The position numbers were made by a program, and so were the translations under genes. DNA of 12,015 nt, from IMG/VR virus record IMGVR_UViG_2703718843_000006, one strand, 5' to 3'. The notes below the pieces were generated by a model. The model saw nothing but the letters and a program-made list of their open reading frames with translations. It searched no databases and was not told where the DNA came from. Below, piece by piece: positions 8,428 through 9,402 of this stretch (the first letter of the stretch is position 1; every line of letters starts with the position of its first letter). The stretch comes from a virus (Duplodnaviria; Heunggongvirae; Uroviricota; Caudoviricetes).

Positions 8428-9402
8428 TTAAAATCTTCCTGCTTTAGATGAGCTAAGACATTCTTTTATCTTATCTTTTCCAAGTTCAACCTTTGTTTTG
8501 GGATTGTTTCTTTCTGCCACGATTTTATCTGCCCACGCGTCAATAGTCAGTTTTCCTCGTTTTCCATTGCAAGATGCTGGGTCATTTAGTAACCAATAAA
8601 TAGCTGCTTTGTACACTGCCTCCCTTTTTGTTGCTGATGCTTCAACATTACCATGCACTCTTCGGATGCTTTCGATGCTGGATACACCACCATTCACATA
8701 GCTGGGTAGCTCTTTGCCAACACCGTTATCTAATTTTTCTATTTGGTATCTTGTTAAATAGATATCATCCAGTGTTATATTTCCAATAATATTTTTATTA
8801 GATGGAGATACTAATCCCTCTATTGATGATAAGCCTTCGAAAGGGGACATTGCTAATATTACCCACTCATCACTGCCAAATGCAGCATTAGTGAATGGCA
8901 TATTAGCTTCTTTAAAAGAAATATCATGTGCTAATAGCCTTGCTTTACCATATACCTTTAGTTCTTTGTATAATGAAGATGTTGGGCTGATGACACATAT
9001 AGACCACAATCCAGAAAGTAAGATTAATGGGCTTTTTATATTTGGTTTGTTTTCTAAATGGTATATTTGTTTTGGAGGTGAAAATGGCTTATCTTCTGTA
9101 TAATCAATATCGAATTTTGCTTTTGGTATGAAATGGCTTAATGCAGATTTATTACTATAGTTTAATACTCTGGGTGGGTACATATTTTCCCAATCTTTAA
9201 AATCTCCACCTTTACGCATCATCATTAGCGCAGCTTCGAAACCATTTAATTCTAAGCAAAATTCGATAATTCCAATTTGAGCAAAATGGATAAGGTCATC
9301 AATTTGGCAATTAAGTAGTTCAGCAGCTCGTTTTAGGGAGCAAAATTCCATTACAGGAATACTATTCCTTTCCCAAACATTTAATCGTGTATTATCGCTC
9401 AT
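8428..9402 (-). CDS. Hypothetical protein (324 aa), AT-rich cargo between int and alpA
   Basis: Long AT-rich ORF. Start placed at ATG 9402 (MSDNTRL...) with AGGTGA Shine-Dalgarno; the track start at 9480 is a TTG overlapping the int stop. No catalytic motif recognised; N-terminus (SLKRAAELLNCQIDDLIHFAQIG) could be helix-turn-helix-like. Same position as yfjH in E. coli CP4-57 (intA-yfjH-alpA, from memory); homology not verified. Confidence 0.7.
   Translation of the reverse strand: MSDNTRLNVWERNSIPVMEFCSLKRAAELLNCQIDDLIHFAQIGIIEFCLELNGFEAALMMMRKGGDFKDWENMYPPRVLNYSNKSALSHFIPKAKFDIDYTEDKPFSPPKQIYHLENKPNIKSPLILLSGLWSICVISPTSSLYKELKVYGKARLLAHDISFKEANMPFTNAAFGSDEWVILAMSPFEGLSSIEGLVSPSNKNIIGNITLDDIYLTRYQIEKLDNGVGKELPSYVNGGVSSIESIRRVHGNVEASATKREAVYKAAIYWLLNDPASCNGKRGKLTIDAWADKIVAERNNPKTKVELGKDKIKECLSSSKAGRF

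What the first reader, a model, noticed from the sequence alone, without database searches (positions are those of the whole stretch)
8428..9402. Second AT-rich cargo ORF between int and alpA with no recognisable domain
A 324-aa protein whose AT-rich composition contrasts with the GC-rich satellite core. It occupies the int-alpA slot, where E. coli CP4-57 has the uncharacterised yfjH (from memory). No catalytic motif recognised. As acquired cargo in an integrase-proximal slot it could be a single-gene defence or abortive-infection factor, or an accessory recombination function.
Basis: partly seen in the sequence, partly recalled or inferred. Interest (0 to 1): 0.6.

Follow-up and report, generated by a model that had tools for sequence, protein, structure and literature searches.

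The report
Hypervariable satellite gene between int and alpA
The ORF is a real, selected gene belonging to a large, unnamed and extremely variable protein family that sits just after the integrase in phage satellites of enteric bacteria; its function is unknown but is most likely to bind some phage protein, and in relatives it is preceded by a known but unexplained structured RNA.

Summary
A 324-aa gene lies on the minus strand at 8428-9402, at 35% GC, between a P4-type integrase and alpA in a P4-like satellite at tRNA-Arg of E. coli.

It is not orphan cargo. It belongs to an unannotated family of 419 clusters at 50% identity, which includes phrog_7144. All 16 loci whose integrase is at least 77% identical to the window's carry a member in this slot. 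Alleles are swapped independently of their neighbours: integrase 94% and primase 98% identical, slot protein 19%. Within an allele, selection is purifying (dN/dS 0.07-0.13). Copies without int or alpA in two Klebsiella species are also conserved (dN/dS about 0.08).

The predicted structure is confident (pLDDT 90) but has no full-length analogue. It shows an acidic winged-helix-like head, a hypervariable middle and a basic helical tail, with no catalytic motif. K-12 YfjH occupies the same position but is unrelated.

In relatives the gene is headed by the Rfam int-alpA RNA (RF02996). Elsewhere that RNA precedes many unrelated accessory genes. The window has only a reduced hairpin form.

Best guess, at moderate-to-low confidence: a non-enzymatic phage-conflict factor that works by binding. 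The function is untested.

The parts
8428..9402 (-). Coding sequence of the 324-aa slot protein (WP_024235423.1), stop codon included
   Evidence: It has 419 related clusters. dN/dS is 0.07-0.13.
9223..9402 (-). Residues 1-60: the conserved winged-helix-like head, with family signature LEYCxLxRAAxLLxCxxxDLxHWAxIGAI
8788..9222 (-). Residues 61-205: hypervariable, strand-rich middle domain with a nearly invariant G131-x-W133
   Evidence: Entropy exceeds 3 bits and occupancy is 0.5-0.9. It has the highest dN/dS of the protein, 0.09-0.32. It is acidic in 93% of members, though +2 in the window copy.
8653..8787 (-). Residues 206-250: moderately conserved segment (DDIYLTRYQIEKL...LPSY)
8431..8652 (-). 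Residues 251-324: conserved, basic, helical C-terminal module, exchanged as a unit between alleles
   Evidence: dN/dS is 0.01-0.05. Net charge is +6 in the window and +2.2 on family average. It is near-identical in the otherwise 36%-identical P0015 and is replaced in P0012-P0014.
9403..9476 (-). 74-nt leader between int and the gene. It has an 11-bp hairpin (9435-9464), then a U-rich stretch, then a hairpin (9403-9433) that pairs with the Shine-Dalgarno AGGUGA. It is a reduced counterpart of the int-alpA RNA found in relatives.
   Evidence: MFE is -19.7 kcal/mol, z = -2.67, with 1 of 200 shuffles as stable. It aligns with the 3' half of the RF02996 leaders. Rfam does not detect it even at E<=10.
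9477..10748 (-). P4-type tyrosine integrase immediately upstream, same strand
8105..8320 (-). AlpA-family regulator or excisionase immediately downstream, same strand
10935..11008 (-). tRNA-Arg(CCT), the integration site (attL side)

Best explanation
SHOWN. The ORF is a functional gene. It encodes one allele of a large, unannotated protein family that is restricted to Enterobacterales and includes phrog_7144. The family fills a variable slot directly downstream of P4-type integrases, and upstream of alpA, in several kinds of phage satellite. Alleles are ancient, 19-37% identical to each other, and are exchanged by recombination independently of the integrase and AlpA beside them. Each allele is under ordinary purifying selection. 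The protein has three modules: a conserved but acidic winged-helix-like head, a hypervariable strand-rich middle, and a conserved basic helical tail. No invariant catalytic residues are present. In many relatives the gene is headed by the structured int-alpA RNA (RF02996). That RNA ends in a stem plus U-run, and its loop pairs with sequence just upstream of the ribosome-binding site. The window keeps only a reduced version whose second hairpin sequesters the Shine-Dalgarno sequence.

INFERRED. The protein most likely acts stoichiometrically rather than enzymatically, as a phage-conflict factor. Its variable middle domain would recognise a variable partner, probably a protein of a helper or competing phage. 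The conserved head and tail would provide a constant function such as oligomerisation, or contact with nucleic acid or a host factor. The outcome would be exclusion of, or interference with, that phage. Expression would be kept low or conditional by the leader RNA.
For: Real gene and real family:
- 15 close clusters and 419 clusters at 50% identity, nearly all 260-340 aa.
- phrog_7144 is matched by 26 of 113 members, best E 5e-78.
- dN/dS is 0.07-0.13.

Slot synteny:
- The order int, member, AlpA holds in 7 of 7 informative contigs.
- All 16 integrase-anchored loci with int at least 77% identical carry a member.

Independent shuffling of alleles:
- Window against L023: int 94%, primase 98%, slot protein 19%.
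- Window against L002: AlpA 92%, slot protein 22%.

Function independent of the satellite's recombination genes:
- Two Klebsiella species have copies beside tRNA-Arg with no int or alpA, with pN 0.11 against pS 0.65.

Not an enzyme, and probably not a classical DNA reader:
- The only columns with a residue at 70% or more lie in the head, plus G131, W133, L216, G229 and R260.
- The recognition helix is acidic in 96% of members. Family mean pI is 5.7, against 9.2-11.5 for AlpA.

No known fold:

Variable accessory slot headed by RF02996:
-.

Precedent:
- PICI and P4-encoded Tai proteins are single proteins without enzymatic domains, with alleles 22-43% identical. They block phages by binding tail proteins (PMC11364771).

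The family's low GC resembles that of the GHKL ATPase cargo gene at the other end of the element.
Against: - No experiment exists and no partner has been identified.
- No convincing match to any PADLOC model. One of 113 members gave weak hits (E 5e-4 to 7e-3) to seven PDC-S05 sub-models, and ten diverse members gave none.
- No effector-type domain is present.
- Within-allele dN/dS shows no gene-wide positive selection.
- The window copy is atypical in charge, with pI 8.1.
- The fixed position next to int and alpA could equally reflect a regulatory role in the satellite life cycle.
- The dS of the orphan Klebsiella pair is near saturation, so that dN/dS value is approximate.
Confidence: 0.38

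Rival explanations
1. Satellite life-cycle sensor or regulator. The protein holds alpA-dependent induction in check, for example as an anti-activator or through its basic C-terminal module on DNA. It would release that check when its variable domain meets a helper-phage protein. This would be a Gram-negative functional analogue of SaPI Stl.
For: - The gene lies immediately upstream of alpA on the same strand in every satellite context.
- For Gram-negative PICIs a global repressor is described as 'unclear', and the helper signal that switches on alpA is unidentified (PMC6092414).
- A conserved head plus a variable domain parallels Stl.
- The acidic protein sits next to a very basic AlpA.
- The C-terminal module is basic and helical.
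- Expression is gated by a structured leader.
Against: - The head is acidic where a DNA-reading helix should be basic.
- The gene is co-oriented with the operon it would control, unlike stl.
- EcCICFT073 is helper-inducible yet has no gene in this slot.
- Allele type does not track AlpA type: AlpA 92% against slot protein 22%.
- Orphan copies with no alpA or satellite to regulate are under purifying selection.
Confidence: 0.2
2. Anti-defence or establishment factor. The protein is co-transcribed with int when the satellite enters a new cell, and it neutralises a host defence system by binding or mimicry.
For: - Gaps between int and the gene are short, from -4 to 95 nt, which suggests an int-gene operon.
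- The family is acidic on average, with pI 5.7 and a middle-domain charge of -7.4.
- Deep allelic diversity is expected in an arms race.
Against: - The window copy is basic, with pI 8.1.
- No similarity to known anti-defence folds.
- The terminator-like leader sits between int and the gene, which argues against simple co-expression.
- Orphan chromosomal copies in Klebsiella would have little use for an entry-stage function.
Confidence: 0.14
3. Accessory factor for integration or excision, meaning an architectural or directionality protein working with the adjacent integrase.
For: - It lies directly after int in all 16 loci of the window's integrase clade.
- The head has an excisionase/MerR-like topology and aligns in register with AlpA.
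Against: - Allele type is uncoupled from integrase type: int 94% against slot protein 19%. The closest alleles sit beside integrases that are only 23-25% identical.
- The alignment with AlpA is not significant, E 0.087.
- The head is acidic.
- Conserved copies exist without any integrase.
- EcCICFT073 integrates and excises without such a gene.
Confidence: 0.07
4. Spurious or decaying ORF in AT-rich DNA.
For: - There is no annotation anywhere.
- A few relatives are truncated: L024, L027 and L034.
Against: - 419 clusters of consistent length.
- dN/dS is 0.07-0.13.
- The structure prediction is confident.
- The start context is conserved.
Confidence: 0.01

Closest known systems
phrog_7144 (PHROGs family, function unknown)
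   Same: Homologous. 26 of 113 family members match it, best E 5e-78. The window copy matches through residues 18-112 at E 4e-5. The profile length, 313, is like the protein length.
   Different: It carries no function or name. It covers only part of the family's diversity.
int-alpA RNA motif, Rfam RF02996
   Same: In relatives it occupies the spacer between the int stop and this gene's start, at a fixed distance. The three-way junction is recovered independently, with 9 of 16 pairs compensatory.
   Different: The window's own leader is a shortened single-hairpin form that Rfam does not detect. The motif also precedes unrelated genes and occurs without int.
Defence or accessory hotspots of P4-like satellites and PICIs (PMC9122126, PMC13586616, PMC11364771)
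   Same: A variable, AT-rich accessory position in a phage satellite. The same element carries a GHKL-ATPase cargo gene in the delta-to-attR region beyond the Psu-like and delta genes.
   Different: The described hotspots lie between int and psu (near cos), between primase and att, between attL and int, at the PICI 3' end, or next to pri. The papers read here do not describe an int-alpA slot. In this integrase clade the slot is filled by one homologous family rather than by unrelated systems.
Tai (tail assembly inhibition) proteins of PICIs, P4-like elements and phages
   Same: Single proteins missed by DefenseFinder and PADLOC, with alleles only 22-43% identical. They act by binding a phage structural protein. 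This is a model for how a protein like this one could work.
   Different: They occupy a different slot (next to pri, or near cos). Homology was not tested because no Tai sequences were available. No functional data exist for this gene.
SaPI master repressor Stl
   Same: A satellite protein encoded next to int, with a conserved head and a highly divergent partner-binding part (PMC6092414).
   Different: Stl is transcribed divergently and binds DNA through a basic HTH. Here the gene is co-oriented and the head is acidic.
AlpA / excisionase / MerR-type winged helix-turn-helix domains
   Same: The head has similar topology and sequence pattern. The fold matches are small winged-helix domains.
   Different: There is no Pfam hit. 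The profile comparison with AlpA gives E 0.087. The charge has the opposite sign.
YfjH of cryptic prophage CP4-57 (E. coli K-12)
   Same: It lies between intA and alpA and has similar length, 318 aa.
   Different: It is not homologous, with hhalign probability 0.6%. It is on the opposite strand to intA and alpA, and no RF02996 is present there.

Membership tests
int-alpA slot protein family (phrog_7144 superfamily) | Sequence homology across the N-terminal head, the G-x-W motif and the C-terminal module | tested here: met
   The window protein seeded the profile, which recovered 419 clusters. phrog_7144 is matched at E 4e-5 by the window copy and at 5e-78 by the best member.
int-alpA slot protein family (phrog_7144 superfamily) | Position directly downstream of a P4-type integrase and upstream of alpA, same strand | tested here: met
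   Seen in the window, in 7 of 7 informative contigs and in all 16 integrase-anchored loci.
RF02996 int-alpA RNA (for the window's own leader, 9403-9476) | Match to the Rfam covariance model at or above the gathering score | tested here: not met
   No match even at E<=10. Relatives score 38-66 bits against a gathering score of 35.8. The window retains one hairpin and an SD-sequestering hairpin.
AlpA / HTH_17 excisionase-type regulators | Pfam PF05930 or PF12728 match | tested here: not met
   No hit for the window copy. One of 113 members hits HTH_17, at E 0.005.
AlpA / HTH_17 excisionase-type regulators | Profile-level homology to the AlpA proteins of the same elements | tested here: inconclusive
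   hhalign aligns the head in the expected register, but at E 0.087 and probability 0.65%.
AlpA / HTH_17 excisionase-type regulators | Basic DNA-binding surface | tested here: not met
   The recognition helix is net negative in 96% of members. AlpA controls have pI 9.2-11.5.
YfjH (CP4-57) | Sequence homology | tested here: not met
   hhalign probability 0.6%.
Known anti-phage defence systems (PADLOC-DB v2) | Match to a defence protein model | tested here: not met
   The window copy has none at E<=1. One of 113 members hits PDC-S05 sub-models weakly. Ten diverse members have none.
Stl-type satellite master repressor | Divergent transcription from the controlled operon, and a basic N-terminal HTH | tested here: not met
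   The gene is co-oriented with int and alpA. The head is acidic.
Stl-type satellite master repressor | De-repression by binding a helper-phage protein | not testable with these tools
   This needs interaction or genetic assays.
Tai-like stoichiometric phage-protein binders | Homology to Tai, and blocking of tail assembly | not tested
Only the analogy from PMC11364771 is used.
P4-like satellite (the host element) | Core genes int, alpA, alpha primase, psu/sid and delta | tested here: met
   Pfam finds integrase, Phage_AlpA, Zn_Ribbon_Prim+Toprim+DUF927, Psu and Ogr_Delta. The gene order differs from canonical P4 (PMC8628076). No epsilon gene was identified.

The most novel reading that the evidence does not exclude
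The int-alpA RNA and this hypervariable protein form one riboregulated sensor module. Each allele would recognise a particular helper or competitor phage protein, and through that recognition would control satellite induction or phage exclusion. This would be the missing Gram-negative counterpart of SaPI Stl. It would also give a first function to an orphan Rfam motif and to a fold with no solved analogue.
Probability: 0.15. Interest if true: 0.85.

Novelty: new variant of a known kind. Interest (0 to 1): 0.55.

Why it matters
Phage satellites are now recognised as major carriers of anti-phage genes. How Gram-negative satellites sense their helper phages is still unknown. This gene family is widespread in Enterobacterales satellites and has hundreds of deeply diverged alleles. 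It has no solved structural analogue. It sits at a position that the satellite papers read here do not describe as a hotspot. It is physically coupled to a structured RNA whose role has not been established. Working out its function would annotate a large block of "hypothetical proteins" in clinical E. coli, Klebsiella, Salmonella and Enterobacter genomes. It would probably also reveal either a new binding-based defence or interference mechanism, or the sensing step of satellite induction. The allele series provides natural specificity-swap experiments.

Tried and rejected
2. Pfam, NCBIfam, PADLOC and PDB sequence searches, with the single protein and with family profiles: no informative hit.
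4. AFDB Foldseek was unavailable.
5. 'Classical HTH repressor' was my working idea until the charge analysis. It is now demoted.
6. AlpA-derived head: not significant.
7. The TGATGGTAT copy just after the stop codon as a possible binding site: a single copy, not conserved in L012, and 7 of 200 shuffles reach the same count. Dropped.
8. A C-terminal module shared with the 240-aa L041 slot protein: weak, at E 0.002 and probability 15%. Left open.
9. The L086 295-aa protein as a distant family member: not supported, E 0.065.
10. tblastn of two alleles against 50,697 phage records: no match.
11. Literature: no paper in the library describes this gene. Fillol-Salom 2022 (Cell) and the Weinberg 2017 supplement could not be read.
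12. The search for related loci with the wide alignment failed for lack of a conserved stretch.

Full report
WHAT IS THERE

The window is an E. coli P4-like satellite integrated at tRNA-Arg(CCT) beside yfdC. It is identical to strain AH21 (NZ_CP081711.1). Reading the minus strand, the gene order is:
- tRNA-Arg
- int (9477-10748)
- the ORF in question (8428-9402)
- alpA (8105-8320)
- an Icd-like gene and small ORFs
- a DUF5375 gene
- a DUF927/Toprim primase
- one Psu-family gene
- Ogr/Delta
- an AT-rich GHKL ATPase, followed by dsdC

This order differs from canonical P4, which is int-psu-delta-sid-alpA-epsilon-alpha (PMC8628076).

It encodes 324 aa, starts at an ATG preceded by AGGTGA, lies 74 nt after the int stop, and has 35% GC against about 60% in the primase. 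It has no Pfam, NCBIfam or PADLOC hit.

IT IS NOT AN ORPHAN

The word-indexed search found only 15 clusters, all unnamed. The exhaustive profile search found 419 clusters at 50% identity, nearly all 260-340 aa. Most match through the first ~60 and last ~100 residues around a variable middle. PHROGs holds part of the family as phrog_7144, of unknown function; 26 of 113 members match it, best E 5e-78. Every source calls members 'hypothetical protein'. Hosts are Escherichia, Salmonella, Klebsiella, Enterobacter, Morganella and Pantoea. Two alleles tested by tblastn have no relative in 50,697 deposited phage genomes.

SYNTENY

In 7 of 7 informative contigs sampled across the divergence range, the order is P4-type integrase, family member, AlpA, all on one strand. 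The backbones include P4-like, AntA/Ash-type, Bro-N and capsid-encoding elements.

In loci fetched through the integrase alone, which is unbiased with respect to this gene, all 16 loci with an integrase at least 77% identical carry a member directly after int. None of the 5 loci with integrases of 54% identity or less does.

The slot is not always filled by this family:
- A leuX element has an unrelated 212-aa gene.
- CP4-57 has yfjH, which is unrelated and on the other strand.
- The experimentally studied PICI EcCICFT073 has only a 365-bp gap. The family is therefore dispensable for the basic satellite cycle described in PMC6092414.

ALLELIC HYPERVARIABILITY WITH PURIFYING SELECTION

Any two allele types are only 17-37% identical, whatever their neighbours:
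- Window against L023: int 94%, primase 98%, slot protein 19%.
- Window against L002: AlpA 92%, primase 97%, slot protein 22%.
- The window's nearest alleles (32-37%) sit beside integrases that are 23-25% identical (L007, L011) or 76% identical (L012).

In complete E. coli genomes the window allele occurs in 10 of 5,426 and the 293-aa allele in 66. The gene has 33-40% GC in every locus, against 42-53% for int and alpA. AT-richness is therefore a family trait.

Within the window's own allele lineage, the same satellite occurs at yfdC/argW in Klebsiella michiganensis and Pantoea. There dN/dS is 0.07-0.13, similar to int, alpA and primase at 0.05-0.17. The middle domain is fastest (0.09-0.32) and the C-terminal module slowest (0.01-0.05).

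Two Klebsiella species carry a 253-257-aa member directly beside tRNA-Arg, with no integrase and no alpA. These copies are 79% identical, with pN 0.11 against pS 0.65. The protein therefore appears useful without the recombination module. The caveat is that dS is near saturation.

ARCHITECTURE

Conservation along the protein is as follows:
- Residues 16-50 are the conserved core (E19, Y/F20, C21, R25, A26, L30, C32, D36, H39).
- Residues 51-205 are hypervariable, apart from G131-x-W133.
- Residues 211-320 are moderately conserved.
- No catalytic-type invariant residues are present.

The head looks like an excisionase/MerR-type winged helix and aligns in register with AlpA, but not significantly (E 0.087). 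Its putative recognition helix is net negative in 96% of members (consensus E-V-E-D-L-L-H-W-A-E). The family mean pI is 5.7, while AlpA proteins from the same elements have pI 9.2-11.5. I therefore do not treat the head as a classical DNA reader. The C-terminal helical module is basic (+6 in the window). The window copy as a whole is an outlier, with pI 8.1.

THE LEADER RNA

Aligning the int-stop to gene-start spacers revealed a ~90-nt element more conserved than either flanking gene. Rfam identifies it as the int-alpA RNA, RF02996. It scores above gathering in L007, L008, L012, L014, L020, L027, L028, L048 and L041. It begins 9-11 nt after the int stop and ends 17-21 nt before the downstream ATG.

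RNAalifold independently recovers the three-way junction, with 9 of 16 pairs compensatory. The model ends in an outer stem followed by a U-run, which looks like a terminator. The loop of the second hairpin is complementary to sequence just after the U-run, in two covarying classes (CACCUG:CAGGUG and GCCUUA:UAAGGC).

The window's 74-nt spacer is a reduced form. It has one 11-bp hairpin, a U-rich stretch, and a hairpin that pairs with the Shine-Dalgarno sequence. MFE is -19.7 kcal/mol and z is -2.67. Rfam does not detect it.

An RNA-anchored scan of viral contigs returned 68 loci. In 61 of the 65 with enough sequence, an ORF of at least 100 aa starts at a near-fixed distance downstream on the same strand. 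Sixteen of these ORFs belong to this family; all 16 have int upstream and 15 have AlpA after. The other 45 fall into 25 unrelated clusters. These include a Dam methyltransferase, HNH endonucleases, a DUF6387 protein and unknowns. RF02996 was confirmed in 13 of 14 of those loci. In the environmental contigs the upstream gene is not an integrase. The RNA therefore heads a variable accessory slot, and this family is its occupant in the window's integrase clade.

INTERPRETATION

Shown:
- The gene is real and under selection.
- It belongs to a large unannotated family.
- It has a fixed position in a variable slot.
- Alleles are shuffled independently of int and alpA.
- The protein has three modules and no enzyme signature.
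- Relatives carry a structured leader.

Inferred: the most economical reading is a non-enzymatic, binding-type phage-conflict factor whose variable middle domain sets specificity, by analogy with the Tai proteins of PICIs and P4-like elements (PMC11364771). I give this about 0.38.

The alternatives are:
- A satellite induction sensor, about 0.2. It is attractive because the helper signal for alpA is unknown. It is weakened by the acidic head, co-orientation, lack of tracking with AlpA type, absence from EcCICFT073, and the conserved orphan copies.
- An anti-defence or establishment factor, about 0.14.
- An integration accessory, about 0.07. It is contradicted by the uncoupling from integrase type and by the int-less copies.
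- A spurious ORF, about 0.01.

Defence-library evidence is essentially nil. One of 113 members gives weak hits to PDC-S05 sub-models, and ten diverse members give none.

COMPARISON AND NOVELTY

The papers I could read describe satellite hotspots between int and psu (near cos), between primase and att, between attL and int, at the PICI 3' end, and next to pri. [quoted passage not shown] None mentions this family, and its accession numbers occur in no paper. RF02996 is named in only one paper in the library, as a list entry. I recall from my own knowledge, unverified here, that it comes from the Weinberg 2017 survey, whose supplement I could not read.

I class the finding as a new variant of a known kind. 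It is an accessory, probably conflict-related satellite gene, in an undescribed slot, from an uncharacterised family, with no known full-length fold, and linked to an orphan RNA motif.

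Noticed in passing
L007:8885-8950, L008:8878-8943, L012:1501-1566, L014:4122-4187, L020:5916-5983, L027:5287-5352, L028:5287-5353, L048:1670-1735, L041:5214-5281; window counterpart 9403-9476: The Rfam int-alpA RNA (RF02996) lies at a fixed distance between the int stop and the slot gene's start. It has a terminator-like end and a covarying loop-to-downstream pairing. In viral contigs it precedes many unrelated genes (Dam methyltransferase, HNH endonucleases, DUF6387) and is not always next to an integrase. It looks like a cis-acting leader of a variable accessory slot.
   Followed up: yes
L009:9001-9774 and L010:8992-9753 (Klebsiella grimontii and K. spallanzanii): Family members sit beside tRNA-Arg at the yfdC locus with no integrase, no alpA and no RF02996. 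They are 79% identical, with dN/dS about 0.08. They may be domesticated or relic copies with a different, shorter C-terminus.
   Followed up: partly
window 8324-8361: A perfect 10-bp inverted repeat (CTGCCGTGTT-N8-AACACGGCAG on the gene strand) lies just upstream of alpA, and its 3' arm overlaps the alpA ribosome-binding site. It sits in a 59-nt stretch that is 98% identical in 63 genomes with a different slot allele. Related alpA types show symmetric changes (CTGCCATGTT...AACATGACAG). It could be an operator or an RBS-occluding hairpin.
   Followed up: partly
window 10772-10819, and 8406-8414: Four copies of TGATGGTA(T/C), in direct and inverted orientation, lie within 50 bp upstream of int. 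They look like arm-type or operator sites. One further exact copy lies just after the slot gene's stop codon, but it is not conserved in L012.
   Followed up: partly
window 8312-8331 and 10828-10847: The 20-mer covering the alpA start (CAGGTAATTTCATGACATTA on the gene strand) recurs at 90% identity upstream of int, including the ATG-ACA-TTA codons. It may be a duplicated regulatory or start region.
   Followed up: no
window 1-1992 (-): A 663-aa AT-rich (about 30% GC) GHKL ATPase (HATPase_c_3, plus a weak HSDR_N_2-like region; phrog_6203 at E 2.5e-78; weak PADLOC REase_II match). In strain AH21 it is the only annotated gene between delta and dsdC, that is, in the delta-to-attR region. It is a likely defence cargo gene.
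   Followed up: partly
window 2693-3454 (-) compared with L002:860-2151: This element has a single Psu-family gene before delta. Sister elements carry two, one of about 247 aa and one of about 183 aa. The second gene appears to be missing here.
   Followed up: no
window, whole; L020:9092-9306, L062:4034-4261, L086:9444-9671: Related satellites carry the isrK and C4 antisense RNAs (P4-type immunity RNAs) upstream of the primase region. The Rfam gathering search of the window found only the tRNA.
   Followed up: no
window 7882-8055 (+) and 7572-7748 (-): A 57-aa plus-strand ORF lies convergent with alpA; its positional counterparts in sister loci L005 and L006 are annotated YlcI/YnfO. An Icd-like cell-division inhibitor gene is preceded by the best promoter-like site in the region, matching 11 of 12 positions at 7888-7860.
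   Followed up: no
family alignment A3 (one unidentified member): One of 113 family members gives weak hits (E 5e-4 to 7e-3) to seven sub-models of PADLOC candidate defence family PDC-S05. Ten diverse members tested separately give none.
   Followed up: partly
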